Shown: positions 33,970 to 46,429 of the stretch, one piece after another | Numbering within the stretch: the first letter of the stretch is position 1 | Layout of the letters: each line of letters opens with the position of its first letter | NCBI GenBank assembly: GCA_966250335.1 | Contig: CBINGZ010000022.1 | Location: 11,218 to 75,217, forward strand | Direction: 5' to 3' | Source of the DNA: an uncultured bacterium | GTDB lineage: Bacteria; Bacteroidota; Ignavibacteria; OLB7 | DNA length: 64,000 nucleotides | Translations under genes and position numbers: made by a program | The notes under the pieces: generated by a model | Told to the model about the DNA's origin: nothing | The model's database searches: none | The model's input: the letters and a program-made list of their open reading frames with translations, nothing else

Positions 33970-33971
33970 CG

Positions 33972-35930
33972 ATGAGCCGCAACGGAGCCGTCCCATCCCG
34001 CCGGCCTCTCTCGGCGCCCCTCCTCGGCGCGATCCTTGTGGGGATTGTGTCGCTGGTCCTCTATATCTCCACCATGAGCCCCACGTTCGGATACGTGGAC
34101 AAGGGGGAGATGGCGGCCGTCGCAAGCACCTTCGGGATTCCGCACCCGACCGGCTATCCGACCCTTATCGCTCTCGGATATCTCTGGACGGCGCTGGTTC
34201 CGATGCGGGATGTCGCCGCGCTCAATCTGCTGGCCGCGCTCCTGACGGCCGGGGGGGCCGCTCTGCTGGCGCTTCTGCTGTACGATATTCTGGGGCGCCT
34301 TCGTCCGGGGAGGAGGGAGGATGCCGGTTCCTCCGCCCCTTCCGAGACCGCGCGGAGCGTCGTATCCGCCTCGGCCGCGCTCTTCATCGCCGCCACGGCG
34401 ACATGGTGGGAACAGGGGACGGGGTTCGAGGTCTACTCGCTCCACCTTCTGATGATCCCTCTGGTGATCCTTCTCTGTCTGCGATATGTCGACGAGGAGG
34501 AGGGTTCTACCGCGGAACCGGGAATCCGTCCGACGACGCGCGGGTTCCTCTTCTCGCTCGCCGTCGGTCTCTCATTCACCAATCATCTTGCCACGATACT
34601 CCTTGCCCCCGCTCTTCTCGTCTACACCTTCGCCCGCCTCGGGTTGAACCGGCGGACGGTGGTGCGGTTGATCCCCCTGATGCCCGGTTTCTTTCTGGGG
34701 CTGCTCCCGTATGCGCTGCTGCCGCTTCGCGCCGCCGCCTCTCCCCGGTTCAACTGGGGAGATCCCGTGACGTTCGAGCGGTTCGTCGATCATGTGACGG
34801 GGAGCGCGTTCAGAGGTCTGCTGTTTTCGACCGGCAGCGAGACATTCACCTCGCATCTCGGCTATTTTCTGGCGAAGCTGCCGGCCGAGCTGGGATATCT
34901 CGGCATCCCCGTGGCTCTCGTCGGGATCGTCCGTACCTTCCGCGCTCCTTCCCTGGCTGTCGCGGCTCTCCTTCTCTTCCTGACCTGCGTGGTCATCGCC
35001 AGCGGATACGGGATCGCCGACATCGACGCCTACTATCTGACGGCGTTCGTCGCTCTCGCTCTCTGGAGCGCGGCCGGACTCTTTCTGCTGGCCGAACGGT
35101 TCGGAACGGCGACGGTCTCGGTCTGCGGCCTTCTGCTTCTCGCCTGCGCCCTCTGGTTCAATCACGGCAGGGCCGACAAGGGGGAGGAGACCCAGGTGGA
35201 GGAGACGGCGTGGAACATGCTCTCGAGCCTTCCTCCGAACGCGATCGTCATCTCCTCGCAGTTCAACTACTGGCTGGGGGGGAGCTGGTATCTGCAGGGG
35301 GCCGAAGGGGTTCGGCCGGATGTCACGGTGATCTACGAGAACCTGCTCGGGCTTTCATGGTTCGCCGAACGGCTCAGGGTCGAATATCCCGATATTGTTC
35401 TTCCGACGAACGGAGAGATCGAGAGGTTCACGGAAGCGGCGCGCCGGTATGAGGAGGGGGAGATCTCGTCTGACCCCGGCAGGTTGCAGACTCTCTATCT
35501 GGAGATGGTGAACGCGATCATCGGGTTGAACATCCCGCGCCGTCCCATCTTCGTGACCGGCGATATTCCTCCGCAGATGGGGGCGAACTACAGGCGTGTT
35601 CCCAATTATCTTGCGCTTCGCCTGATGCCGACGGAGGAGTATCTTCCGCAACCTTTTCCCGACTATCGGTTCCGGAGATGGGAGGGCCCCGCCGATCCCT
35701 ACGTAGCGAACCTGCACGAGCTCTACGGAAGGAGTCTCTACGCACGCGGTCTCTACGAGCAGGGGTATGGCCGGGACTCGCTGGCGATGGCATATTTCCG
35801 GTACGCGCTGGAGTTCGATCCCGGGTTCGACACGACAGATCTTCCTCCCATCCCGCTCGACGGGGAATCCCAGGTTCGCGCCACCGCGCGCTTCTTCGGT
35901 TCGTTGCGCCGGGGGCTGGGGAGCAGATGA
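33972..35930 (+). CDS. Polytopic membrane protein, DUF2723/GT-C-fold (ArnT/PMT-like) candidate glycosyltransferase, copy 1 of a tandem pair
   Basis: ATG 33972 (a GTG at 33966 is also possible), overlapping the upstream stop. Multiple hydrophobic segments. The N-terminal conserved block YISTMSPTFGYVDKGEMAAVASTFGIPHPTGYP sits in the first loop, as for the acidic motif of GT-C enzymes. The soluble C-terminal ~250 aa has TPR-like character. ~45% identical to the next gene. Confidence 0.6.
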   Translation: MSRNGAVPSRRPLSAPLLGAILVGIVSLVLYISTMSPTFGYVDKGEMAAVASTFGIPHPTGYPTLIALGYLWTALVPMRDVAALNLLAALLTAGGAALLALLLYDILGRLRPGRREDAGSSAPSETARSVVSASAALFIAATATWWEQGTGFEVYSLHLLMIPLVILLCLRYVDEEEGSTAEPGIRPTTRGFLFSLAVGLSFTNHLATILLAPALLVYTFARLGLNRRTVVRLIPLMPGFFLGLLPYALLPLRAAASPRFNWGDPVTFERFVDHVTGSAFRGLLFSTGSETFTSHLGYFLAKLPAELGYLGIPVALVGIVRTFRAPSLAVAALLLFLTCVVIASGYGIADIDAYYLTAFVALALWSAAGLFLLAERFGTATVSVCGLLLLACALWFNHGRADKGEETQVEETAWNMLSSLPPNAIVISSQFNYWLGGSWYLQGAEGVRPDVTVIYENLLGLSWFAERLRVEYPDIVLPTNGEIERFTEAARRYEEGEISSDPGRLQTLYLEMVNAIIGLNIPRRPIFVTGDIPPQMGANYRRVPNYLALRLMPTEEYLPQPFPDYRFRRWEGPADPYVANLHELYGRSLYARGLYEQGYGRDSLAMAYFRYALEFDPGFDTTDLPPIPLDGESQVRATARFFGSLRRGLGSR

Positions 35931-35967
35931 GTCGCCGAGAACGTCAACGCATGAGTCACATCGTATT

Positions 35968-37995
35968 ATGAGTCAATCGGACGTAAGAGAATCGGCCCCG
36001 GAGGCTTCGAAGGGGCTTCTCGGCGCGCTCACCCCCGCAAGGGCCGCCGCCGTCGTGACGGTACTGGCGTTCGTGCCGTATCTGATAACGATGAATCCGT
36101 CGTACGGGTTCGTCGATAAGGGGGAGATGGCGGCCGTCGCCAGTTCGCTGGGGATCGCTCACCCGACGGGATATCCCACCATCATGCTGCTGGGGTATCT
36201 CTTCGCGAAGCTCCTGCCGGTTCGGGACGCATACGCGCTCAATATCCTTTCGGGACTCCTCACGGCCGGGGGCGCCGGTGTCCTCACCCTCCTCTTCCAT
36301 GAACTCCTCACCCGCTTCGATCTCCCCCGTCCGGCCCCGACTCCCGTGCGAAAAGGGGAGCGGAACAGAGGGAAGGAGGCTCCCCGAAAAGGGGCGGTCG
36401 TTGCGCAGGCACCTCCCTCCGGTATGGAATCGAACGTTCTGCCGGCAGCCCTTGCCGCGCTCTTCACGGCGTTCACCTCCACCTGGTGGAATCAGGGGAA
36501 CGGCTTCGAGGTCTACTCGCTCCATGTGCTTCTGATGGCGATCGTGACCCTCCTCTTCATCAGGTATGTGGAGGGGGAGCGGGCCGCGGACTCGATCGAT
36601 ATCTTCTCGAAGCGGGGAGTGTGGTTTGCCGTCATGCTCGGGCTCTCGTTCACCAACCATCTTACAACGATACTTCTTGCTCCCGCCTTTCTGGTCTTCT
36701 ACTTCATCCGGCTCGGGATCAACGGGGGGGCGTTCCTGAGGATGGGGGGACTGGCCCCCTGGTTCGTGGCGGGACTGCTTCCGTATCTCTGGCTTCCGAT
36801 CAGGGCATCGATGAAGCCCCGGTTCAACTGGGGTGATCCTTCCAACATGAAGAGGTTCTTCGACCACATCACCGGCAAGCAGTATCAGGTCTGGATGTTC
36901 AGCAACGCCGAGACGTGGAGTCAGCAGTCGAAGTTCTTCTTCGGCAATCTTCCGGCCGAGCTTGGATATATCGGACTGGTGATCGTGGCCCTCGGGATCG
37001 TCCGGCTTATCGGGCGGAGCCCGGCCCTTGGGATCAGCGTCGCGGTTCTCTTCCTGACCTGCATCGTCTGGGCCGGCGGGTACGACATTATGGAGATCGG
37101 GCCGTACTATCTGACCGCGATCTTCGCGATCGGGATCTGGGCGCTCTTCGGTCTCTCCTTCCTGCGTGAGCGGATCGGTTCGCGGGGAGCGCTTCTCGCC
37201 GGCGGCGTCCTGGTGCTGGCGACCCTCGCCGTCAACTACTCCTCCAGCGACGAGAGCGGGAACACGCTCGTGGAGGACAAGACCGTGAACATGCTCACGA
37301 CGCTGCCGCAGAACGCCGTGGTCTTCTCCGCGCAATGGGATTTCTGGGTGGCCGGCAGTTTCTACACGCAGGAGGTGGAGGGACTTCGTCCCGATGTGGT
37401 CGTGGTCGATCCGGAACTGATGCGCCGTTCCTGGTATATCGATGAACTCCGGCGCTACTTCCCGGAGTTCATGGCGACGGTCAGGGGGGAAACCGACCGG
37501 TATCTGGTGGAGCTCCACAAGTTCGAATACGAGCTTCCGTACAACGACGCGGTGATCGAAGGGGCGTACATCGGGCTGCTCCGGGCGATGGTGGAGAAGA
37601 ATATGGAGATCCGTCCGGTGCTGGTCACCGGGGATGTCCGCCCGGATATGACCTCCGGGTTCGTGCTGACGCCGTACTATCTGGCGCTGAGGGTCACGCG
37701 CGATCCCGCCTATATTCCGATGGAGTTCCCGAAGTACACCTTCCGCCTGTGGGATCGTGTGGACGGATATACCGCCAAGCTGTGCGAGCTTTACGCGCGG
37801 AGCGCCGTGGGACGGATGCTCTACGAGCGGAAGCACGGACACGACTCCCTCGCCGTCCGGTATGGAGATCTGGCGCTCAGTTTCGACCCGGGATTCGACC
37901 ATGAGCATATCCCCAGTCTGCCGCTCAACAGCGAGGATCAGGTGCGGGGGACGATCGATTTCTTTGCCGCGCTCCGGGGAGAGCTCGGGCGCTGA
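35968..37995 (+). CDS. Polytopic membrane protein, DUF2723/GT-C-fold candidate glycosyltransferase, copy 2 of the tandem pair
   Basis: MSQSDVRESAPEASK...YLITMNPSYGFVDKGEMAAVASSLGIAHPTGYP shares the conserved N-terminal block and overall architecture with 33972..35930 (…WWNQGNGFEVYSLHVLLM… against …WWEQGTGFEVYSLHLLMI…). Confidence 0.6.
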   Translation: MSQSDVRESAPEASKGLLGALTPARAAAVVTVLAFVPYLITMNPSYGFVDKGEMAAVASSLGIAHPTGYPTIMLLGYLFAKLLPVRDAYALNILSGLLTAGGAGVLTLLFHELLTRFDLPRPAPTPVRKGERNRGKEAPRKGAVVAQAPPSGMESNVLPAALAALFTAFTSTWWNQGNGFEVYSLHVLLMAIVTLLFIRYVEGERAADSIDIFSKRGVWFAVMLGLSFTNHLTTILLAPAFLVFYFIRLGINGGAFLRMGGLAPWFVAGLLPYLWLPIRASMKPRFNWGDPSNMKRFFDHITGKQYQVWMFSNAETWSQQSKFFFGNLPAELGYIGLVIVALGIVRLIGRSPALGISVAVLFLTCIVWAGGYDIMEIGPYYLTAIFAIGIWALFGLSFLRERIGSRGALLAGGVLVLATLAVNYSSSDESGNTLVEDKTVNMLTTLPQNAVVFSAQWDFWVAGSFYTQEVEGLRPDVVVVDPELMRRSWYIDELRRYFPEFMATVRGETDRYLVELHKFEYELPYNDAVIEGAYIGLLRAMVEKNMEIRPVLVTGDVRPDMTSGFVLTPYYLALRVTRDPAYIPMEFPKYTFRLWDRVDGYTAKLCELYARSAVGRMLYERKHGHDSLAVRYGDLALSFDPGFDHEHIPSLPLNSEDQVRGTIDFFAALRGELGR

Positions 37996-38114
37996 CGCAA
38001 CCGCGAAACGTCGGCACGGTATCGACGAGAAACGTTATCATTGCCGGAAGGAGCGATGATGCAGTCGACCGGGGGAGAGCCCCCGAACTTTTTCACAGAA
38101 TTGTAGTCAGGCAG

Positions 38115-38639
38115 ATGGACACAGCGTCGAGCGAACCGGGTACCGTCGACAGGTCGAGCGTCGAGGCCGATGGAGAAGTGGAGTTCGTTCATGAGCGGAT
38201 CAAGCAGAAACGATTCGCCAGCACGATCGAGGAGGCGATGGTCGGGCTCATGGTCGCGGCCAGCGAGGTGAACTCCAGGATCTCCCAGATCTGCGAGGAG
38301 TTCGGCGTCACCGTGGCGCAGTACAACGTGCTCCGGATTCTTCGGGGTGTGCATCCGGAAGGGCATCCCCGCTACGAGATCAGCAGTCGGATGATCGACC
38401 GTGCTCCGGACGTCACCCGGCTCATCGATCGTCTGGAGCGGCAGGGGCTGGTGGAACGGATCCGCTCGCCGGAGGATATGCGCCTGTCGATCAGCAGGAT
38501 CACCCCGCACGGTCTCGAACTGCTGGAGCAGGTGCAGCCCCGGCTGAACACCCTCTTCGCCGCGATCACCGAGCGGCTGCCGGAGCAGGATCAGCGCGAA
38601 CTGGCCCGCATCTGCCGCGACCTCTGCCAGATCTGGTAG
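38115..38639 (+). CDS. MarR-family transcriptional regulator
   Basis: Winged-HTH region FGVTVAQYNVLRILRGVHPEGHPRYEISSRMIDRAPDVTRLIDRLERQGLVERIRSPEDMRLSISRITPHGLELLE is a classic MarR pattern; 174 aa. Confidence 0.85.
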   Translation: MDTASSEPGTVDRSSVEADGEVEFVHERIKQKRFASTIEEAMVGLMVAASEVNSRISQICEEFGVTVAQYNVLRILRGVHPEGHPRYEISSRMIDRAPDVTRLIDRLERQGLVERIRSPEDMRLSISRITPHGLELLEQVQPRLNTLFAAITERLPEQDQRELARICRDLCQIW

Positions 38640-38886
38640 GATAGATGGTCGTGTAAATTCTTCGAAATGATCTGCTGTCCGTTTTCAGGAATTCGTACGG
38701 ATTCCGGACAGATTCCGGATCAAGGTCGTGTGTGCCAACACTGAATTTTCCTGAATTTCGGGGAGATATGGTGTTGGCACGATTATTATATGTACCTCCG
38801 CTATCGGTGTGAGGACCGATCAGAATAATTGAATCCGCCCGAGGGCGGAACCAGGTACAGGTACAGGTAAACGAGGAGATTCCCTA
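38640..38886 (+). promoter_or_regulatory. Upstream regulatory region of pilin-like cassette 1 carrying inverted repeats and a TGGCAC box
   Basis: IR CTGTCCG (38675-38681) / CGGACAG (38705-38711). Direct repeat attccgga x2 (38701-38719). Near-perfect IR tGTGCCAACAC (38731-38741) / GTGTTGGCACg (38771-38780), whose right arm contains TGGCAC (38775-38780). Palindrome TCCGCCC-gag-GGGCGGA (38834-38849). SD-like GAGGAG 8 nt before the ATG. Confidence 0.35.
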
Positions 38887-39435
38887 ATGCAGAAGCAGGT
38901 CATTGCCCTCGCGGCAGCGTCCGCCATGGCACTTATCGGCGCGGCCGGAGTGCAGGCACAGTCCGCGTCGGTCAACAGCACCGCGACCATCGTCACGCCG
39001 ATCACGGCAAACGCCACCGCCCCCCTGGCGTTCGGGACGATCAACAAAGGCGCTACATCTTCGGTTGCAGCCACGAGCGCTTCGGCAGGCGCCGCAACGT
39101 TCAGCGGAGATGAGGGGGATAACATCACGGTCTCCGTTCCGGCAACGGCGACGATCAACACGACCTCGGGCGCGGGCTCAAGCATGACGGTCACGCTCAA
39201 CCGCGCTTCGCTGCGGTCGAACACGACGAGCGCCCAGGGATCGGCCACGACGCTCGACGCATCGAGCGGTTCGGCTGCGGCAAACCTGAGCACGGACGGA
39301 AGCGGTGACGGCACCGCCAGCGACGGCCTCGGCCAGCTCTACGTCTGGATCGGCGGCTCGGTCACGCCGGCGGCTGCACAGCAGCGCGGCACCTACAGCG
39401 GCACGTTTACGGTCAGCGCAGTCTATTCGAACTGA
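38887..39435 (+). CDS. Secreted pilin-like subunit, SCPU (spore-coat-protein-U)/DUF4402-like, paralog 1 of 3
   Basis: 182 aa with signal peptide (MQKQVIALAAASAMALIGAAGVQAQ). Low-complexity A/S/T/G-rich beta-type sequence. C-terminal YVWIGGSVTPAAAQQRGTYSGTFTVSAVYSN is like the SCPU/DUF4402 C-terminal strand. ~75% identical to 40944..41480 and 43685..44227. Confidence 0.6.
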   Translation: MQKQVIALAAASAMALIGAAGVQAQSASVNSTATIVTPITANATAPLAFGTINKGATSSVAATSASAGAATFSGDEGDNITVSVPATATINTTSGAGSSMTVTLNRASLRSNTTSAQGSATTLDASSGSAAANLSTDGSGDGTASDGLGQLYVWIGGSVTPAAAQQRGTYSGTFTVSAVYSN

Positions 39436-39492
39436 CCCCGAAGACCCTGTTCGATAGTGAGGGGTAGCCCCCCTGCCCCTAGCTTCGATCTG

Positions 39493-39540
39493 CCGGTCCG
39501 CACGAATAAGATTCTTCGTGCGGACCGGTTTATTTTCTAA
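39493..39540 (+). terminator. Rho-independent terminator after pilin-like gene 1
   Basis: CCGGTCCGCACGAA-taagattc-TTCGTGCGGACCGG (14-bp stem) followed by TTTATTTTC. Confidence 0.65.
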
Positions 39541-39671
39541 AGATCTCTCTCTTCTCCGCCCGAATCCGCCGGACGTGAGAGGAAGGAGAAGAGCAAGAAG
39601 TTTTCCGTAAGATGCGCTCGTTGCAATTACGCAGCCCGACCCCGACCCGCGCACCAATCTCCAAGAAAACC

Positions 39672-40622
39672 ATGAGCCGGACCGAACCATCCCAGGAAAC
39701 CCCGACCCCCGAGCCCTCCGGCCTCGAGATGGTGATTCATTCCCGCACACGCGAGATCGTCGAGGGTTTCAAGGTGAGGCGTGTGCTCCCTTCGGCGCGA
39801 AGGCGGATGGTCGGCCCGTTCATCTTCTTCGATCAGATGGGACCGGAAATCCTGACCGCCGGTCGAGCGCTCGACGTGGCTCCGCATCCCCACATCGGGC
39901 TTGCGACGGTTACGTATCTCTTCGACGGCGAGGCGTTCCACCGCGACAGCCTGGGAACACGGCAGCCGATCAGACCGGGAGATGTCAACTGGATGACGGC
40001 GGGACGTGGTATCGCGCACTCCGAGCGGACGCCGGAGAATCTCAGACTGACCGGATCGAAGATGTTCGGCATTCAGTCATGGGTGGCGCTGCCGACGAAA
40101 TATGAGGATACCGATCCGGCGTTCGCGCATCATTCCGCCGGGGAGCTCCCGGTGATCGAGGGGGAGGGAGCGGAGGTCCGTCTGATCGTCGGCGGGATGT
40201 TCGGTTCCCGTTCTCCCGTGCAGACCCTCTCGGAGACCTTCTACGCCGATGTGGCGTTGCGGCAGGGGGTCCGTTTCTCGGTGCCGGTCGATCAGGAGGA
40301 GCGCGCGGTCTACGTTCTGGAGGGGAGCATCGAGATTGCCGAGGAGGAGGGGAGCTACGCCGAAGGGGAGCTTCTGGTCCTCAGGCCGGGAGCCGTCGTG
40401 ACGTTGCGGGCTCCGGAGTCGGCTCCCGCCCGCGTCATGCTGCTGGGAGGGGCGACGATGGATGGTCCGCGGCATATCTACTGGAACTTCGTCTCCAGCT
40501 CCCGCGAGCGGATCGAGCAGGCGAAAGAGGATTGGAGGGAAGGGCGATTCGCTCCCGTTCCCGATGAAACGGAGTTCATCCCGCTGCCGGATGATCCTCC
40601 GCCTCCGGTGTCTTATCCGTAA
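39672..40622 (+). CDS. Pirin-family cupin protein
   Basis: [51 protein letters not shown] matches the pirin N-terminal cupin metal site (HPHRGFETVTY..GE..HRDS.G....GD.QWMTAG.GI.HSE). The start could alternatively be ATG 39729 (MVIHS). Confidence 0.85.
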
Positions 40623-40740
40623 GCTTCATACGACTGCTCTGCGAATCTCGGCCGGCGTCCACGCTTCTTTCTCTTCTCCTTCGCGGCCTGAAGGAGCGGT
40701 TCCGGTTTGACCCGATCTTGCCGACCGTATCCCTCCGGAA

Positions 40741-40943
40741 CTTCCGCCACCCTGTCCGAATCCACCCCACAGTCCGACTTCCGGACAATCGCTCAATCTC
40801 AGAATCCTCCATTTCCTCATGATTCCGCTGTTTTCGTTCCTGGCACAATTATGCAGGTGTTATAACGCAGACGGCGATTACGCCGCTCGATCAGACAAGC
40901 AGATAACGAACACGAAATAAACAACGCACTCAGGAACACAGTC
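40741..40943 (+). promoter_or_regulatory. Conserved ~190-bp leader (copy A) of pilin-like cassette 2: IR TGTCCGAA-N20-TTCGGACA-like operator plus TGGCAC box
   Basis: ctgtccgaatccaccccacagtccgacttccggacaat...ttcctggcacaattatgcagg... Near-identical leaders occur at 43497..43684 and 44413..44536. Confidence 0.45.
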
Positions 40944-41480
40944 ATGAAGAACCTCCTCTCGATCCTCGCCCTCTCGGTCATCGCTTCCGCCGCCGCCTTC
41001 GCTCAGTCGGCCTCGGTCACCAGCACCGCCACGATCGTCACCCCGATCACCGCGACGGCGACCGCCCCGCTCGCCTTCGGAACGATCACCAAGGGCGCCA
41101 CGGCGTCGGTTGCCGCCAACAACGCCGCCGCCGGCGCAGTCTCCTTCAGCGGCGACGAAGCCGACAACATCACGATCTCGGTCCCGGCAACCGCGACGAT
41201 CTCGACGACCTCCGGCGCAGGCTCGAACATGACGGTAACGCTCAACCGCGCAGCACTCCGCTCGAACACGACAAGCGCGCAGGGATCTGCCTCGACGCTG
41301 GACGCATCGAGCGGGACGGCAGCGGCGAATCTGAGCACGGACGGCAGCGGTGACGGAACGAACGGCGACGGTCTCGGCCAGCTCTACGTCTGGATCGGCG
41401 GTTCGGTGAGCCCGACGGCGACGCAGCAGCGGGGCAATTACAGCGGCACGTTCACGGTGAGCGCCGTCTACTCGAACTAA
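40944..41480 (+). CDS. Secreted pilin-like subunit, SCPU/DUF4402-like, paralog 2 of 3
   Basis: 178 aa; MKNLLSILALSVIASAAAFAQSASVTSTATIVTPITATATAPLAFGTITKG...YVWIGGSVSPTATQQRGNYSGTFTVSAVYSN; signal peptide. Confidence 0.6.
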   Translation: MKNLLSILALSVIASAAAFAQSASVTSTATIVTPITATATAPLAFGTITKGATASVAANNAAAGAVSFSGDEADNITISVPATATISTTSGAGSNMTVTLNRAALRSNTTSAQGSASTLDASSGTAAANLSTDGSGDGTNGDGLGQLYVWIGGSVSPTATQQRGNYSGTFTVSAVYSN

Positions 41481-41559
41481 GGATGGGACGCCGCTACGCG
41501 GCTTCGAACAAGAGCATGGAACATGCGGAGGCGCGACGGCGCGACTCTCTTACCCCGGT

Positions 41560-41595
41560 ATCCTCGCGGAAGGCGTTTCCGCGAGGATTTTTTTA
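41560..41595 (+). terminator. Rho-independent terminator after pilin-like gene 2
   Basis: ATCCTCGCGGAA-ggcgt-TTCCGCGAGGAT followed by TTTTTTT. The same stem sequence recurs after pilin gene 3. Confidence 0.65.
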
Positions 41596-41725
41596 TGATG
41601 GTGCAGTGTGGTCGATCGTCTCTTGATCTCACCGATCGAATTTGAGAGCAAGCCTCGGAGTGCGAGGGGGCTGTGCGGGTTGGTAGATTGCATCCCGTTG
41701 CCTGAGAGATGATCGAAAACGCGCC

Positions 41726-42814
41726 ATGAAGAGATCAATGAACAGAGAAAGAGCCCCCCTCATCGAACACGATCCCCGCTGGGCTCTGGTCGCGGCTCGT
41801 GACCGGAACGCGGACGGAACGTTCTACTACGCGGTCGTGACCACGGGAGTCTACTGTCGCCCATCGTGTCCGGCCCGGCTTCCCCGCCCGGAGAATGTGA
41901 CCTTCCACACGACACGTGAGGAGGCCGAACGGGCCGGGTTCCGTCCCTGTCGCCGCTGCCGTCCGGAGATGCCGTCGCTGGCGGAAGAGCATGCGGCAAG
42001 GGTCACCGAGGCGTGCCGGATCATCGAAGAGTCGGAGACGCCTCCCGGTCTGGATGAGCTGGCGAGACGGGTAGGAGTGAGCCGGTACCATTTTCACCGC
42101 CTCTTCAGGCAGAGTACAGGACTCACTCCCAGAGAGTACGCGGCGGCGCATCGCGGAAAGCGGGTGCGAAGCGCGCTCGTCGGCGGCGCGTCGGTGACGG
42201 AGGCGATCTACGATGCGGGCTACAACTCCAACGGCCGTTTCTACGAACAATCAAACCGGATGCTTGGAATGACCCCTACCAGCTATCGCGCCGGCGGCGC
42301 GGAGACCGATATCCGCTTTGCCGTCGGCGAATGCTCGCTCGGCTCGATCCTTGTGGCGAGCAGCGACAAGGGAGTATGCGCGATCCTCATGGGAGATGAT
42401 CCCGACGAGCTGACGCGCGACCTTCAGGACCGTTTTCCCCGAGCTCATCTGATCGGTGGGGAGAAGGAATTCGAGGAGCTCGTCGCCCGCGTCGTCGGGT
42501 TCGTCGAGACACCCCGCATCGGACTCGATCTGCCGCTGGATGTGCGGGGAACCGCGTTCCAGCAGCGGGTCTGGCAGGCGTTGTGCCGGATTCCGGCGGG
42601 GAAGACCGCAAGCTATACCGAGATCGCCGAGCAGATCGGTTCGCCGAAGTCGGTGCGGGCCGTGGCGCAGGCGTGTGCCGCGAACGCGATTGCCGTCGCG
42701 ATCCCCTGTCACCGTGTGGTCAGGACGGATGGAGGGCTCTCCGGATATCGGTGGGGAGTTGAACGGAAACGGGCGCTGCTGGAGAAGGAGGGAGCGTATG
42801 AAGGGAAACCGTGA
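41726..42814 (+). CDS. ada: Bifunctional Ada: Zn-Cys4 methylphosphotriester-DNA methyltransferase / AraC-type HTH / O6-methylguanine-DNA methyltransferase
   Basis: N-terminal Ada Zn-binding motif (VYCRPSCPARL...FRPCRRCRP). AraC HTH (LDELARRVGVSRYHFHRLFRQSTGLTPREY). C-terminal MGMT active site IPCHRVV with preceding QQRVWQAL; 362 aa. Confidence 0.9.
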   Translation: MKRSMNRERAPLIEHDPRWALVAARDRNADGTFYYAVVTTGVYCRPSCPARLPRPENVTFHTTREEAERAGFRPCRRCRPEMPSLAEEHAARVTEACRIIEESETPPGLDELARRVGVSRYHFHRLFRQSTGLTPREYAAAHRGKRVRSALVGGASVTEAIYDAGYNSNGRFYEQSNRMLGMTPTSYRAGGAETDIRFAVGECSLGSILVASSDKGVCAILMGDDPDELTRDLQDRFPRAHLIGGEKEFEELVARVVGFVETPRIGLDLPLDVRGTAFQQRVWQALCRIPAGKTASYTEIAEQIGSPKSVRAVAQACAANAIAVAIPCHRVVRTDGGLSGYRWGVERKRALLEKEGAYEGKP

Positions 42815-43322
42815 AACCGGGACGATCGAGAGGGAAGATCTCCCCGAACGTGTGGAACTCCTGGAGTGGAAGAGGATATCGGACGATCTCGACGACCGCG
42901 GATATGCCGTGATAAGCGGACTTCCCAGCCCCGAAGAATGCACGGCCCTCACCGCGCTCTACGATCACGATGATCTTTTCCGCAAGCATGTCGTCATGGA
43001 GCGCCACGGCTACGGACGCGGCGCATACAAATACTTCGACTACCCGCTTCCGGACCCGGTTGCGGCGTTGCGGGGATCACTCTACACGCGTCTTGCGCCG
43101 ATCGCGGACCGCTGGAATGATCTGATGGGGATCGATGTGCGGTTTCCGTCGCGACCGGAGGTGGTGCCGTTAAGAGAGGGGGATGCCGTCATCTTCGCCG
43201 TCCGCCACAGGCCGGTGCGGGGAACACGCGGGATCTACCGGGTCGCGATGCGTCACGGCGTCAGCCGGCTCCGTTCGGGAGGACGTCACACCCTCGGCAT
43301 CATCTTTCATGACGCGACCTGA
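42798..43322 (+). CDS. Small 2OG-Fe(II)-oxygenase-like protein, putative AlkB-type partner of Ada
   Basis: ATG 42798 overlaps the ada 3' end by 17 nt (operon-like). Candidate HxD (HDD in LYDHDDLF), distal His (VRHRP/AMRHG) and RxT-like (GGRHTLGIIF) elements; 174 aa. The assignment rests mainly on ada-alkB synteny, so it is tentative. Confidence 0.45.
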   Translation: MKGNRETGTIEREDLPERVELLEWKRISDDLDDRGYAVISGLPSPEECTALTALYDHDDLFRKHVVMERHGYGRGAYKYFDYPLPDPVAALRGSLYTRLAPIADRWNDLMGIDVRFPSRPEVVPLREGDAVIFAVRHRPVRGTRGIYRVAMRHGVSRLRSGGRHTLGIIFHDAT

Positions 43323-43342
43323 ACGGTAGCGATGACTCGGTA

Positions 43343-43376
43343 ATTCCGGAGGCGCCGGATCGGATCACGACCGCGG
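43343..43376 (+). terminator. GC hairpin after the ada-alkB-like operon (no T tail)
   Basis: GGCGCCG-gatcggatcacgac-CGCGGCGCC. Confidence 0.25.
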
Positions 43377-43496
43377 CGCCTGCCGGATCAATCCGACGTT
43401 TCGCAGGGCTGACTGAGAGACCATCTACCCCATGCCCGGCGGGGTTTCGAGGCTCCCGCGGTCGCCGGTCATCCCTTGAACACCTCCTCCTTTCTG

Positions 43497-43684
43497 TCCG
43501 AATCCACCCCACAGTCCGATTTTCGGACAATTGCCCCCTCCTAAGATCCCCCGTTTTTCCCTGATTCCTCACGTTCCTTCCTGGCACGATTCTGAAGGGG
43601 TTCTACCACAGAACGGCAATCGCGCCAATCGACAACACAGCAGATAACAACAACACGAATACAAAACGCACGCTCAACACTCTC
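43497..43684 (+). promoter_or_regulatory. Conserved leader (copy B) of pilin-like cassette 3 with exact IR TGTCCGAA-N20-TTCGGACA and TGGCACGATT box
   Basis: tctgtccgaatccaccccacagtccgattttcggacaattg ... ttcctggcacgattctgaagg ...; ends at ATG 43685. Confidence 0.45.
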
Positions 43685-44227
43685 ATGAAGAACCTCCTCT
43701 CCATCCTCGCCCTCTCGATCATCGCAACTTCCGCTGCCGTCGCCCAGTCGGCTTCGGTCACCAGCTCCGCCACCATCGTCACGCCGATCACCGCTGCTGC
43801 CACCGCTCCGCTCGCCTTCGGCACGATCACCAAGGGCGCCACCGCCACCGTCGCCGCCAACAGCAGCTCCGCCGGCGCCTTCAACTTCAGCGGTGACGAA
43901 GCCGACAACATCACCGTCTCGGTCCCGGCCACCGTCGTCATCTCGACGACCTCCGGCGCAGGGGCGAACATGACGGTGACGCTGGCGCGGAACGCGATGC
44001 GACACACGGGTCTGGTGAACGTCCCGTCGAACGGCGCGTCGGCCGTGGATGCCTCGAGCGGAACGGTGACGGTTGCTCTCAGCAGCGACAACCAGGGAGC
44101 GGGCGAGAACGGAGACGGTCTGGGTCAGGCATACATGTGGATCGGCGGCTCGGTGACGCCGGCGGCGACGCAGCAGCGCGGCAGCTACAGCGGGACGTTC
44201 ACGGTGAGCGCCGTCTACTCCAACTAA
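43685..44227 (+). CDS. Secreted pilin-like subunit, SCPU/DUF4402-like, paralog 3 of 3
   Basis: 180 aa; MKNLLSILALSIIATSAAVAQSASVTSSATIVTPITAAATAPLAFGTITKG...YMWIGGSVTPAATQQRGSYSGTFTVSAVYSN. Confidence 0.6.
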   Translation: MKNLLSILALSIIATSAAVAQSASVTSSATIVTPITAAATAPLAFGTITKGATATVAANSSSAGAFNFSGDEADNITVSVPATVVISTTSGAGANMTVTLARNAMRHTGLVNVPSNGASAVDASSGTVTVALSSDNQGAGENGDGLGQAYMWIGGSVTPAATQQRGSYSGTFTVSAVYSN

Positions 44228-44304
44228 GGATGGGAGGCCGCGACGCGGCGACAGAAGAAGCATTAACGCAGAGGCGCAGAGGGCTGCGCCTCTCCCAACC
44301 CCCA

Positions 44305-44342
44305 GATCCTCGCGGAGAGCCTTCCGCGAGGATTCTTTTTTC
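44305..44342 (+). terminator. Rho-independent terminator after pilin-like gene 3
   Basis: GATCCTCGCGGA-gagcc-TTCCGCGAGGATTC followed by TTTTTT. It is homologous to the terminator at 41560..41595. Confidence 0.65.
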
Positions 44343-44412
44343 TCTCACCTCTTCTTTCTCTCTTCTTTCTTACCTCTGTGTCCTCTGTGACTCCCTGTTC
44401 ATTTCTCTTCAT

Positions 44413-44692
44413 CTTCTGTCCGAATCCACCCCACAGTCCAACTTTCGGACAATCTCTTCGTTTGAAATCCCTTATTCCTTCATAATTCCGCCGTTTTCGT
44501 TCCTGGCACAATTATGCAGGTATTATCACACAGACGGCGATTATGGATCTGCCTCGACGCGGGACGGCGACGGCGAACCTGAGCACGGACGGAAGCGGCG
44601 ACGGGAGTGGGCGGTTCGGTGAGCCCGACGGCGACGCAGCAGCGCGGCAATTACACCGTCACGTTCACCGTCAGCGCAGTGTATTCGAACTA
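44413..44692 (+). pseudogene. Recombination remnant: conserved pilin leader fused to the 3' ~150 nt of a pilin-like gene (N-terminal ~110 codons deleted, frame disrupted)
   Basis: Leader copy C (ttctgtccgaatccaccccacagtccaactttcggacaatc ... ttcctggcacaattatgcaggtattatcacacagacggcgatta) runs directly into ggatctgcctcgacgc...ggttcggtgagcccgacggcgacgcagcagcgcggcaattacaccgtcacgttcaccgtcagcgcagtgtattcgaactaa. That segment is homologous to the 3' end of 40944..41480 but carries internal deletions; the only ORF (44543..44734) is out of frame with the pilin C-terminus. Confidence 0.6.
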
Positions 44693-44772
44693 AGCCTGCG
44701 GATGCAACACGGAAACTCGCCTGATGAATGGTAATTTGGTTCGGTGCCCGGCTCATCCGGCGCCGAACCGTC

Positions 44773-45648
44773 ATGTTGAACATCTTTATGACGATGCGCA
44801 TTCTCTCGATCACTCTTCTCGCTTTCCTTTCGCTCGCCTCGGCCGTCGTCGCACAGGTCGAGGTTGCTCCCACCAGAGTCATCCTCACCATGCGTGAGCG
44901 GTCCAAGGAGGTCAACGTCTCCAACACCACCGACAGCCCTCTGGAGGTCGACGTCCAGCTCGGCTTCAAGCTGATCACCTCCGATTCGGCGGGTGTGCAG
45001 GGGATCGACTCGGTCGGGACGCCGGAACAGCGCACCAGATCGGCCAGGGAGTGGCTGAAGGCGTTCCCGCGCCGGTTCACGCTCGACCCCCGTTCCTCCA
45101 GAACGGTGCGTGTCCTCGCGACGATACCGGATGCGGCGGAGGAGGGAGAGTACTGGGCACGTCTGATCGTGGCCGGCACCCCGGTCGCCGGATCGGTCCC
45201 TGTCGACGGAGATACGGCGCAGGGGATCGCCACCAATCTCGTCATGCGCCTCGAACTCGATTTCCCGGTGATCGTCCGGAAGGGAAATCCCTCCACCGGC
45301 ATCGAATTCAACGGACTTCAGGTCCGCCGGAGCGCCGCGGAGACGATCGCTCTGCTCGATATGACCAGGACCGGGAACAGCGCCTATCGCGGCACTCTCT
45401 TCGCGACGCTCAAGAACGCGTCGGGGGCCGAGGTCGCCAGGCTCGAGGAGCAGTTTACCACCGAATTCAGGTTCCGGAAGGCGCTCCGCTTCCCTTCCCT
45501 TCCCGACGGCAACTATCTGCTCGAGCTCGAATCGCGCACCGTCAAGAAGGGGAGCGCCAACGATGCGGTGATTCCCTCGACGGACGTGAGGAAGAGCTAT
45601 GCTCTCGCCGTCTCCGGTTCCTCCGTAACTGTTACCATGAAGGATTAA
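44773..45648 (+). CDS. PapD/CsuC-like periplasmic pilus chaperone candidate
   Basis: Signal peptide (MTMRILSITLLAFLSLASAVVAQ), then VEVAPTRVILTMRERSKEVNVSNTTDSPLEVDVQL, which matches the PapD_N first-strand pattern (l.pTRvi....k...l.v.N......lvq.w). ~290 aa, the two-domain chaperone size. It sits between pilin-like genes and a large outer-membrane protein gene. Confidence 0.55.
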   Translation: MLNIFMTMRILSITLLAFLSLASAVVAQVEVAPTRVILTMRERSKEVNVSNTTDSPLEVDVQLGFKLITSDSAGVQGIDSVGTPEQRTRSAREWLKAFPRRFTLDPRSSRTVRVLATIPDAAEEGEYWARLIVAGTPVAGSVPVDGDTAQGIATNLVMRLELDFPVIVRKGNPSTGIEFNGLQVRRSAAETIALLDMTRTGNSAYRGTLFATLKNASGAEVARLEEQFTTEFRFRKALRFPSLPDGNYLLELESRTVKKGSANDAVIPSTDVRKSYALAVSGSSVTVTMKD

Positions 45649-45909
45649 CTCCGACCGTTCTCATCATCATTAACCTAACCCCTCTTCCCGGGAAGCGCTC
45701 CGCGATTCTGTGAAGGGGGGTGAGCCGTACGCGCCTGTTCGTATGTCCGTATCCCGGAGGGACGCGGAGGGAACTGTACGGATTTCAGACATCATTCTCT
45801 TTCCATAAGCCCCATTTTCGCAAGGATTTTGCGGAAATCGACCCTGGCATAATTCTTATACCTTATTATCACAGAGCAGGCCGAGATCAGTGACGACGGT
45901 CGCGAAACA

Positions 45910-46398
45910 ATGACAGAGATCTGGACAATGGCAATCCGACACACGATAGCGATAGTGACGATGATGATCCTCTGCACGGTCACGACGGCGTTCTCACAGA
46001 CCGTCATGGGACTCGACGGTCTCGATTTCGGATCGCTCTATCGTTCGTCGACCGGCAGCATCGAGTATATCTCGAACGCCGCCGCCCAGTTCTCGGTCGT
46101 TGCCAAGGAGAAGAAGACGATCCGTCTTACCGTCACGGTCGTCAACCTCAAGCGCGATTCGAAGACGCTCCCGATCACGGTGACCAACAACGACTGCGCC
46201 TACAGTCTGGATGACGGCGCCAACTGGATCACCTTCTCCACCGGCTCCCTCTATCAGGATATTCCGATCCCGAAGGACAATGACAAGGGGAATCGCGAGA
46301 CGATTCTGGTGAGAGTGGGGGGATCGGTGACGGCATCGGCGACGCAGCAGCGCGGCAACTACAGCGGAACGGTATCTCTCTCCGTATCATACATCTGA
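45910..46398 (+). CDS. Divergent SCPU/DUF4402-like minor subunit (tip/adaptor candidate)
   Basis: 162 aa, hydrophobic N-terminus. C-terminal LVRVGGSVTASATQQRGNYSGTVSLSVSYI is homologous to the major-subunit C-terminus. A TGGCATAATTCTTATA box lies ~110 nt upstream. Confidence 0.5.
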   Translation: MTEIWTMAIRHTIAIVTMMILCTVTTAFSQTVMGLDGLDFGSLYRSSTGSIEYISNAAAQFSVVAKEKKTIRLTVTVVNLKRDSKTLPITVTNNDCAYSLDDGANWITFSTGSLYQDIPIPKDNDKGNRETILVRVGGSVTASATQQRGNYSGTVSLSVSYI

Positions 46399-46429
46399 CA
46401 TCAATAAGGCTTCCCAGATAATCTTCCCG

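What the first reader, a model, noticed from the sequence alone, without database searches (positions are those of the whole stretch)
44413..44692. Leader-to-3'-end fusion remnant of a pilin gene heading the chaperone/usher operon
A copy of the conserved leader runs, after …gacggcgatta, straight into sequence homologous to the last ~50 codons of the pilin 2 gene, with internal deletions and a frame change (compare ggatctgcctcgacgcTGGACGCATCGAGCgggacggc in 41279.. with ggatctgcctcgacgcgggacggc here). The usher operon therefore appears to have lost its resident major-subunit gene by deletion or recombination, while intact copies sit upstream as independent cassettes. This is direct evidence that the paralogous subunit genes recombine; it could serve cassette-like antigenic or phase variation, or it may simply be decay.
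Basis: seen in the sequence. Interest (0 to 1): 0.6.

Follow-up and report, generated by a model that had tools for sequence, protein, structure and literature searches.

The report
Decayed pilin gene heading pilus operon
This is the decayed remnant of the pilus-subunit gene that once headed a chaperone/usher pilus operon, with its promoter region kept and most of its coding part deleted; the bacterium keeps at least three, probably four, intact stand-alone copies, so it is ordinary gene decay and not a switching device.

Summary
Window 44416-44543 is a copy of the upstream region of pilin 2 (85% identical) and pilin 3 (74%). At 44543/44545 it joins directly to homologues of the last 65 codons of pilin 2. 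Three deletions relative to pilin 2 (about 402, 14 and 35 nt) leave the three surviving coding pieces in three different frames.

Eleven related lineages (Kapaibacteriota, Chlorobiota and Bacteroidota MAGs and metagenome contigs) carry a pilin gene abutting the chaperone, full-length wherever the contig reaches far enough. Each has a GC-rich hairpin just before the chaperone start. The window has the same hairpin after the remnant, so the remnant sits in the ancestral resident slot.

The 'leader' is mainly a promoter-type region: an inverted repeat plus a TGGCAYRATTHT box. The box lies upstream of every DUF4402 gene in the window (5 hits, 0.01 expected). Pilins 1-3 each have this box and a strong terminator. 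A fifth copy sits at an unlinked locus in the same sample.

Every contig of this organism that reaches the remnant (three separate metagenome assemblies and one sequencing-run assembly) shows it unchanged. No recombinase, silent cassette or alternative junction was found.

Verdict: a pseudogene in a poorly characterised DUF4402 chaperone/usher-like system. Its promoter probably still drives the chaperone gene. Cassette variation is not supported, although the intact paralogues are clearly mosaic.

The parts
38887..39435 (+). Pilin 1 (DUF4402, 182 aa), a stand-alone copy. Its box is at 38775-38786 and its terminator at 39492-39529.
   Evidence: Pfam DUF4402, E 8e-9; terminator; box.
40752..41594 (+). 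Pilin 2 cassette: upstream region 40752-40880, CDS 40944-41480 (178 aa), terminator 41560-41588. It is the closest relative of the remnant.
43494..44339 (+). Pilin 3 cassette: upstream region, CDS 43685-44227 (180 aa, with the second type of variable region) and a strong terminator at 44305-44334. The terminator isolates it from what follows.
   Evidence: 77% identical to the pilin 2 cassette over 861 nt; terminator with a 13-bp stem and a T run.
44416..44453 (+). Conserved block 1 of the retained upstream region. It contains the inverted repeat TGTCCGAA (44417-44424) ... TTCGGACA (44444-44451).
   Evidence: The first 24 nt are identical in pilin 2, pilin 3 and the remnant. Only 2 of 38 positions differ from pilin 2.
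44504..44515 (+). Promoter-type box TGGCACAATTAT. It resembles a sigma-54 -24 element, but the -12 part is not canonical.
   Evidence: The pattern TGGCAYRATTHT has 5 hits in the window against 0.01 expected. Every hit is upstream of a DUF4402 gene or of the remnant. The box is also present in relatives.
44543..44545 (+). Fusion junction (...GATTA | T | GGATCTG...). It creates an ATG that opens a 63-aa ORF (44543-44734) with no signal peptide. Only 15 of its residues are read in the pilin frame.
   Evidence: No gene is called here on L001 or L002.
44545..44693 (+). Pilin pseudogene body: 149 nt homologous to codons 114-178 of pilin 2, in three pieces (44545-44560, 44561-44604, 44610-44693). The pieces are separated by 14-nt and 35-nt deletions and lie in three different frames. 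The stop codon is at 44691-44693.
44694..44772 (+). Native pilin-to-chaperone spacer. It holds a 13-bp GC-rich hairpin (44738-44769) with no T run, ending 3 nt before the chaperone ATG.
   Evidence: An equivalent hairpin lies in the same place in all nine related loci folded. The pilin 2/3/5-type 3' flank is absent here.
44773..45648 (+). PapD-like periplasmic chaperone (291 aa), intact.
   Evidence: Pfam PapD_N, 26.7 bits against a cut-off of 23. It equals P0001 and aligns over its full length to 43 homologues.
45845..46398 (+). Second box (45845-45856) followed by the minor DUF4402 subunit gene (45910 or 45961 to 46398).
46430..49021 (+). Usher-like outer-membrane protein (863 aa), intact.
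   Evidence: No Pfam hit. A low-confidence model (pLDDT 52) nevertheless gives FimD or PapC as its top 19 Foldseek hits, E 8e-20 to 2e-8.

Best explanation
The segment is a pseudogene. It is what is left of the major-subunit (DUF4402 pilin) gene that originally headed this chaperone / minor-subunit / usher operon.

Shown:
- A full gene once stood here. An internal deletion of about 402 nt removed the end of its 5' untranslated region and its first 113 codons.
- Two further small deletions (14 and 35 nt) and a few substitutions followed.
- No pilin can now be made from this site.

Inferred:
- The upstream promoter-type region (inverted repeat plus TGGCAC box) and the downstream spacer with its hairpin survive because they are still the only plausible route for transcribing the chaperone gene. 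Pilin 3, immediately upstream, ends in a strong terminator.
- Major subunits are now supplied in trans by stand-alone paralogues. Three are in this locus and one more is elsewhere in what is probably the same genome. Each has the same type of promoter box and its own terminator.
- The loss was tolerated because of this redundancy. It is fixed in the sampled population.
For: 1. Homology and lesions: searches give the alignments. Searches show three pieces in three frames.

2. Ancestral state. In 11 related lineages (L005-7, L011-L019; chaperone 53-66% identical) a pilin gene lies 80-250 nt upstream of the chaperone. It is full-length in nine; in L016 and L017 the contig starts inside it. Flanking synteny is conserved: ABC-F, TMEM260-like and MarR on one side, OmpA and TPR genes on the other.

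3. Native site. The spacer after the remnant carries the same GC hairpin, right before the chaperone ATG, as all nine related loci folded. It lacks the 3' flank shared by pilins 2, 3 and 5.

4. A once-functional gene. Of 13 differences from pilin 2 in the retained coding pieces, 10 are synonymous third-position changes (binomial P = 0.0016). The 3 non-synonymous changes are all specific to the remnant. One is Gly to Val at the Gly of Y(S/T)G(T/S)F, which is invariant in 13 homologues.

5. Promoter region. The two conserved blocks differ from pilin 2 at 4 of 76 positions, against 15 of 53 elsewhere in the leader (Fisher P = 6e-4). The box is specific to DUF4402 genes (5 hits, 0.01 expected). 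Strong terminators follow pilins 1-3 and none follows the remnant.

6. Machinery intact. The chaperone, minor subunit and usher-like gene are all full length.

7. Real and fixed. The sequence is identical in every contig of this organism that reaches it (L001-L004). Neighbouring contigs L026, L027 and L029 also match the window arrangement.
Against: - Present activity of the retained promoter is not shown. Most of its conservation could date from before the deletion.
- The nature of the box is unresolved. The GG...GC spacing is one base short of the sigma-54 consensus, and the -12 element is not conserved among copies.
- All contigs of this organism are 99.5-100% identical, so they sample one population. 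A rare subpopulation with another arrangement would not show up in consensus contigs.
- The closest other lineage is distant (chaperone 66% identical), so the time of the loss cannot be bracketed.
- That pilins 1-3 are actually assembled by this usher is inferred only from family membership and linkage.
Confidence: 0.8

Rival explanations
1. Programmed cassette-type antigenic or phase variation. The remnant would be one state of an expression site that is refilled from, or emptied into, the upstream pilin copies by recombination.
For: - The paralogues do exchange sequence. Pilin 5 has a pilin 2-like signal region (97%) and a pilin 3-like variable region. Pilins A and B of L005 are 95.7% identical in codons 23-100 but have unrelated flanks.
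- Two variable-region types exist in this genome.
- The remnant shares identical stretches of 24-35 nt with pilin 2. These could support rare homologous recombination.
- Assemblies break at these repeats.
Against: - The upstream copies are complete genes with promoter box, signal peptide and terminator. They are not silent cassettes.
- The remnant carries three independent deletions and a substitution at an invariant Gly. This is decay, not a clean recombination product.
- There is no recombinase or invertase gene nearby and no flanking inverted repeats.
- Every contig that crosses the site has the same junction.
- Contig breaks at repeats are what short-read assemblers produce anyway.
Confidence: 0.06
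2. The remnant was never a complete gene at this site. It would be a partial copy of the pilin 2 cassette placed in front of the chaperone by unequal crossing-over or gene conversion between paralogues. The true resident gene would be pilin 3, or would have been lost entirely.
For: - The remnant is closer to pilin 2 (85-91%) than pilin 2 is to pilin 3 (77%).
- A few tail positions are shared with pilin 1 and not with pilin 2, a hint of mosaicism.
Against: - The remnant's 3' flank is the operon-type spacer with hairpin, not the cassette-type flank and terminator of pilins 2, 3 and 5.
- Its differences from pilin 2 are mostly synonymous. It therefore evolved as a coding gene after the split.
- Pilin 3 has its own strong terminator and lies 545 nt from the chaperone. 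The resident pilin in relatives lies 80-250 nt away and has no terminator with a T run.
Confidence: 0.09
3. The remnant is functional as it stands. It would act either as a small protein (the 63-aa ORF from the ATG created at the junction, or the 28-codon C-terminal strand peptide) or as a long regulatory 5' untranslated region for the chaperone.
For: - The junction creates an ATG (44543). The resulting ORF ends 38 nt before the chaperone start, so translational coupling is conceivable.
- The retained tail encodes the most conserved strand of the pilin.
Against: - There is no signal peptide.
- The ORF is out of the pilin frame for most of its length.
- No gene is called here on the full contigs.
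- No relative has anything comparable.
- There is no Rfam match.
- The invariant Gly is replaced.
Confidence: 0.04
4. Assembly artefact: a chimeric collapse of reads from the pilin paralogues.
For: The locus is repeat-rich, and short-read contigs break at the repeats.
Against: - The remnant differs from every paralogue: 15% in the leader, plus unique substitutions and unique deletions.
- It is reproduced exactly in separate assemblies. L001 and L002 span it with unique sequence on both sides, and L003 crosses the fusion junction.
Confidence: 0.01

Closest known systems
Disrupted or truncated structural genes in chaperone-usher fimbrial operons of Enterobacteriaceae (E. coli, Salmonella)
   Same: A subunit gene inside an otherwise intact chaperone-usher cluster is truncated by deletion and left as a pseudogene at its syntenic position. 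In E. coli, 458 clusters were found and 379 usher sequences came from intact operons. [quoted passage not shown]
   Different: - The system here is a very distant one: DUF4402 subunits, and an usher without a Pfam Usher match, in Kapaibacteriota-like bacteria.
- The lost gene is the major subunit itself.
- Several independently transcribed paralogues in the same locus make up for the loss.
- The promoter region of the dead gene is retained.
Archaic (sigma-clade) chaperone-usher pili such as Csu of Acinetobacter baumannii and CupE/SCPU of Pseudomonas aeruginosa
   Same: - Operon logic: subunit(s), then a PapD-like chaperone, then an usher.
- The usher-like protein matches FimD and PapC by fold.
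   Different: - There is no sequence-level match to any solved pilin, chaperone or usher.
- The subunits belong to Pfam DUF4402, not SCPU.
- Gene order places a minor subunit between the chaperone and the usher.
- The fold scores are modest, and the usher model has low confidence.
Neisseria pilE/pilS antigenic variation. This is a type IV pilus system recalled from general knowledge and was not tested here.
   Same: Several paralogous pilin sequences with variable regions are clustered in one genome, and there are signs of gene conversion among them.
   Different: - In Neisseria the silent copies lack the promoter and the 5' coding part, and the expression locus is complete.
- Here the situation is the reverse. 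The upstream copies are complete, and the truncated copy keeps the promoter and lacks the 5' coding part.
- No dedicated recombination element was found.

Membership tests
Chaperone-usher pilus assembly system | Periplasmic PapD-like chaperone | tested here: met
   Pfam PapD_N scores 26.7 bits against a cut-off of 23 (E 6e-6) for 44728-45648. JGI names homologues 'P pilus assembly chaperone PapD'. NCBIfam fimbrial chaperone models score far below their cut-offs.
Chaperone-usher pilus assembly system | Outer-membrane usher: a 24-strand barrel with plug, N-terminal and C-terminal domains | tested here: inconclusive
   There is no Pfam, NCBIfam or PDB sequence match. The AlphaFold model has low confidence (pLDDT 52, pTM 0.32, four sequences in the alignment). 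Even so, its 19 best Foldseek hits are all FimD or PapC (E 8e-20 to 2e-8, TM 0.19-0.47), ahead of other barrels.
Chaperone-usher pilus assembly system | Subunits with an incomplete Ig-like pilin fold that polymerise by donor-strand exchange | tested here: inconclusive
Pfam DUF4402 (PF14352) | Match to the family model above the gathering score | tested here: met
   Pilins 1, 2, 3 and the minor subunit score 34-43.5 bits against a cut-off of 25.2. No paper in the library mentions the family.
Pseudogene (non-functional gene remnant) | Homology to a functional gene, together with loss of the start, loss of the signal peptide and a broken reading frame | tested here: met
   Codons 1-113 are missing. 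Deletions of 14 and 35 nt put the three remaining pieces in three frames. An intact gene occupies the same position in relatives.
Pseudogene (non-functional gene remnant) | Relaxed constraint after inactivation | tested here: inconclusive
   All 3 non-synonymous differences are specific to the remnant, and one hits an invariant Gly. The numbers are too small for a rate test.
Cassette-based pilin antigenic variation or invertible-promoter phase variation | Promoterless silent cassettes plus one expression locus, or inverted repeats flanking a promoter together with a site-specific recombinase | tested here: not met
   Each upstream copy has a promoter box, a signal peptide and a terminator. No inverted repeats flank the promoter region. 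No recombinase is present among the neighbouring genes.
Cassette-based pilin antigenic variation or invertible-promoter phase variation | Alternative arrangements coexisting in a population | tested here: not met
   Every contig of this organism that reaches the site shows the same arrangement. Contigs only were examined, not reads, so rare variants are not excluded.
Sigma-54-dependent promoter | TGGCAC-N5-TTGC with GG and GC separated by 10 nt | tested here: not met
   The -24-like TGGCAC is conserved in all copies. The GC follows after 9 nt, and only in some copies (pilin 2, the remnant, L011). Other copies have TGAA, TTAT or TTAA at that place.

The most novel reading that the evidence does not exclude
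The retained promoter-plus-remnant is not just debris. It would be a selected arrangement that uncouples subunit supply from the assembly machinery. The chaperone/usher genes keep the same inverted-repeat and TGGCAC-box control as a dispersed set of at least four monocistronic pilin genes with two variable-region types. One machine could then build antigenically different fibres, depending on which paralogue is expressed. In addition, homologous recombination between the remnant and pilin 2 or pilin 3 could occasionally rebuild a canonical operon by deleting the genes in between.
Probability: 0.1. Interest if true: 0.55.

Novelty: new member of a known kind. Interest (0 to 1): 0.25.

Why it matters
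In itself it matters little. A truncated subunit gene inside a fimbrial operon is a common form of gene decay.

It does have three uses:
- For annotation: the 545-nt 'gap' before the chaperone is a pseudogene plus a promoter region.
- As a marker that this lineage moved major-subunit supply from the operon to dispersed, independently terminated paralogues.
- As a pointer to an uncharacterised DUF4402 chaperone/usher-like pilus system in Kapaibacteriota, Chlorobiota and Bacteroidota. This system has a specific, recurring promoter architecture and conserved MarR and TMEM260-like neighbours, and those features deserve study more than the remnant does.

Tried and rejected
- Exact look-up of hypothetical hybrid proteins (pilin 1, 2 or 3 with the remnant's NYTVTF tail) and of the 63-aa ORF found nothing. 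Pilins 1 and 2 themselves, used as positive controls, were not found either. The test is therefore uninformative.
- A scan of JGI metagenome contigs for the unique spacer sequence found nothing. The organism is present only in ENA, Logan and NCBI data.
- Profile-based scans for related loci gave only 4 genome loci and 2 metagenome loci. The first attempt failed because the alignment was too divergent. Most comparative loci came from exact-protein look-ups instead.
- The usher look-up by exact sequence failed.
The four-sequence model that replaced it has low confidence.
- Rfam found no credible RNA family in 38000-47000.
- PDB sequence searches found nothing for the pilin, chaperone or usher.
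- Literature searches for DUF4402, PF14352 and sigma-54 promoters in Bacteroidetes returned nothing.
- I suspected a further decayed leader copy upstream of the pirin gene (about 39550-39620). The leader profile did not support it.
- An apparent missing minor-subunit gene in L019 relative to L020 was only a gene-calling difference; the DNA is identical.
- I considered the sigma-54 reading of the box and did not adopt it, because the spacing and the -12 element do not fit.

Full report
**What is in the sequence**

The locus reads, on the + strand:
- MarR-family regulator, 38115-38639
- pilin 1, 38887-39435
- pirin
- pilin 2, 40944-41480
- Ada and a DNA-repair oxygenase
- pilin 3, 43685-44227
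- the segment in question, 44413-44693
- PapD-like chaperone, 44773-45648
- minor subunit, ending at 46398
- an 863-aa usher-like protein, 46430-49021

The three pilins and the minor subunit match Pfam DUF4402. The chaperone matches PapD_N above its threshold. The 863-aa protein matches nothing in Pfam.

**Checking the observation**

- 44416-44543 is 85% identical to the region upstream of pilin 2 and 74% identical to that of pilin 3.
- After ...GACGGCGATTA (ending at 44543) and one odd base, the sequence continues with the homologue of pilin 2 codon 114 onward.
- Relative to pilin 2, about 402 nt are missing at the junction: the end of the 5' untranslated region plus codons 1-113.
The three surviving pieces lie in three different frames.
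- BLAST E-values of 1e-28 to 1e-36 exclude chance.
- The remnant has its own substitutions and is reproduced exactly in independent assemblies, so it is not a chimeric assembly.

**Ancestral state**

The chaperone has homologues in MAGs labelled Kapaibacteriota, Chlorobiota and Bacteroidota, and in one labelled 'uncultured Alphaproteobacteria', as well as in many metagenome contigs. The usher's homologue P0126 is named Candidatus Kapaibacterium.

In all eleven related lineages for which upstream DNA was available, a DUF4402 pilin gene lies 80-250 nt upstream of the chaperone. It is full-length in nine. In L016 and L017 the contig begins inside the gene.

Flanking synteny is conserved: ABC-F and TMEM260-like genes and MarR on one side, OmpA-like and TPR genes on the other. 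The window locus is therefore an expanded version of a conserved locus.

All nine related loci that were folded have a strong GC-rich hairpin without a T run just before the chaperone start. The window has the equivalent hairpin at 44738-44769, directly after the remnant's stop codon. In contrast, pilins 2, 3 and 5 share a different 3' flank, followed by a canonical terminator.

The remnant therefore occupies the native resident slot. It is not a stray partial copy.

**History of the dead gene**

In the retained coding pieces the remnant differs from pilin 2 at 13 positions.
- Ten are synonymous third-position changes (binomial P = 0.0016 against one third).
- The three non-synonymous changes are all specific to the remnant. 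One replaces the Gly of the Y(S/T)G(T/S)F motif, which is invariant in 13 homologues.

The gene thus evolved as a functional paralogue for most of the time since it split from pilin 2. It was inactivated later and has since gathered two more deletions and a few substitutions. This is the usual deletional decay of bacterial pseudogenes.

**What the 'leader' is**

The conserved upstream region has two islands.
- Island 1 carries an inverted repeat, TGTCCGAA...TTCGGACA. Its first 24 nt are identical in the three copies.
- Island 2 carries the box TGGCACAATTAT.

The pattern TGGCAYRATTHT occurs five times in the 64-kb window against 0.01 expected. The hits lie upstream of pilins 1, 2 and 3, the remnant and the minor subunit. 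The box recurs upstream of pilin or minor-subunit genes in relatives and at an unlinked pilin locus.

Between the remnant and pilin 2, the two islands differ at 4 of 76 positions. The rest of the leader differs at 15 of 53 (Fisher P = 6e-4).

The box looks like a sigma-54 -24 element. However, the GC dinucleotide follows one base too early and is not conserved among copies. I leave the sigma factor open.

Most of the 'leader' is therefore promoter DNA and not transcribed leader.

**How it most likely works now**

Pilins 1, 2 and 3 each end in a strong terminator with a 13-15 bp stem and a T run. These are the three best terminator-like sites in the 12 kb scanned. None follows the remnant. The only promoter-type element between the pilin 3 terminator and the chaperone is the remnant's box.

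I infer, without transcript data, three things:
- The box still drives the chaperone.
- The minor subunit and usher also have the box at 45845.
- Major subunits come from the stand-alone paralogues.

A fifth pilin (P0061) lies on another contig of the same sample at the same coverage (7.3x). It has its own inverted repeat, box and cassette-type 3' flank. A relative with a 3.2-Mb contig also has orphan pilin genes far from any chaperone gene. Dispersed subunit genes thus appear to be normal in this group.

**Recombination and variation**

The intact paralogues are mosaic.
- Pilin 2 shares its flanks and signal region with pilin 3 (67-86%) but its variable region with pilin 1 (84%, against 53% with pilin 3).
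- Pilin 5 has a pilin 2-like signal region (97%) and a pilin 3-like variable region.
- The two pilins of L005 are 95.7% identical in codons 23-100 and have unrelated flanks.

Gene conversion among paralogues is therefore well supported. That support comes from these data, not from the remnant.

For a programmed switch there is no support:
- There are no silent cassettes.
- No recombinase gene was found near the locus among the genes scanned.
- There are no inverted repeats around the promoter.
- L001 and L002 span the remnant whole, L003 crosses the fusion junction, and L004 holds its last piece. All are identical to the window. Neighbouring contigs L026, L027 and L029 also fit the same arrangement.

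These contigs are 99.5-100% identical, so they represent one population. Rare variants cannot be excluded without reads.

**Classification of the system**

- The usher model is poor (pLDDT 52). Its 19 best structural matches are nevertheless all FimD or PapC.
- No sequence-level link to solved structures exists.
- No paper in the library mentions DUF4402.

The label 'chaperone/usher operon' is reasonable, but the system is a distant and uncharacterised branch.

**Comparison with known cases**

Truncated structural genes in chaperone-usher operons are commonplace in E. coli. Of 458 clusters, 379 usher sequences came from intact operons. Clusters with truncated structural genes or IS insertions were classed as disrupted, and many fimbrial types occur intact or disrupted at the same locus (PMC3559732).

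The present case is a new example of that known phenomenon in a new lineage. Its particular features are that the major subunit gene is the one lost, that its promoter region is retained, and that paralogues with their own terminators compensate.

**Verdict**

- Interest is low to moderate (0.25).
- The more interesting leads are side observations: the DUF4402-specific promoter architecture, the conserved MarR and TMEM260-like neighbours, and the mosaic pilin paralogues.

Noticed in passing
window 38775-38786, 40841-40852, 43582-43593, 44504-44515, 45845-45856; also L005 11046, L011 9209, L017 1466, L023 9927: The box TGGCAYRATTHT lies 65-112 nt upstream of every DUF4402 gene start (5 hits in the window, 0.01 expected). 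An inverted repeat of the TGTCCG...CGGACA type usually lies 55-90 nt further upstream. The box resembles a sigma-54 -24 element, but the GC is one base too close and the -12 part is not conserved. This is a candidate regulon-specific promoter and operator.
   Followed up: partly
window pilins 1-3; L023 10001-10543; L005 8297-8845 and 9361-9906: The paralogous pilin genes are mosaics. Pilin 5 combines a pilin 2-like signal region (97%) with a pilin 3-like variable region. The two pilins of L005 are 95.7% identical in codons 23-100 but have unrelated signal peptides and flanks. This is concerted evolution, or gene conversion, within genomes. Two variable-region types coexist in this organism.
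   Followed up: partly
window 33966-37995 and 38115-38639; L005 5168-7943; L019 4031-6943: One or two TMEM260-like (protein O-mannosyltransferase-like) genes and a MarR-family regulator are conserved immediately upstream of the pilin genes in relatives. The pilins are rich in Ser and Thr, so pilin glycosylation and MarR control of the box or inverted repeat are possible. Neither was tested.
   Followed up: no
window 39612-40622, 41726-43322, 31801-33969: Compared with the syntenic locus L005, the window locus has extra genes interleaved with the pilin cassettes: pirin, Ada with an oxidative DNA-repair oxygenase, a beta-lactamase-family gene and a second TMEM260-like gene. No mobile-element gene is visible.
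   Followed up: partly
window 44738-44769; L005 9950-9983, and the equivalent sites in L011-L015, L018 and L019: A strong GC-rich hairpin without a T run lies just upstream of the chaperone start codon in every locus. The loops of L012, L015 and L018 share CTGCCATGCG. It may set the pilin-to-chaperone expression ratio or stabilise the pilin mRNA.
   Followed up: partly
window 44335-44412, 40655-40690, 39545-39565: Polypyrimidine (CT-rich) tracts on the + strand lie between each terminator and the next conserved upstream region. The longest, about 80 nt, is just before the remnant's leader.
   Followed up: no
window 6875-15007 and 15867-23939: Two giant ORFs on the + strand (2710 and 2690 aa) with coding-like GC3 lie upstream in the window. 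They were not examined.
   Followed up: no
L030 8001-9234 and 9578-10971: On a 3.2-Mb contig of a relative, two tandem DUF4402 pilin genes lie with no chaperone gene called in the roughly 8 kb held on either side. Next to them are an ECF sigma factor gene and a possible anti-sigma gene (a 252-aa product with no Pfam hit), and then a 913-aa protein with faint PapD/ASH-like Ig hits.
   Followed up: no
window 44543-44734: The deletion junction creates an ATG that opens a 63-aa ORF ending 38 nt before the chaperone start. Gene callers ignore it on full contigs. It was not found in the protein collection, but that look-up also failed its positive controls.
   Followed up: partly
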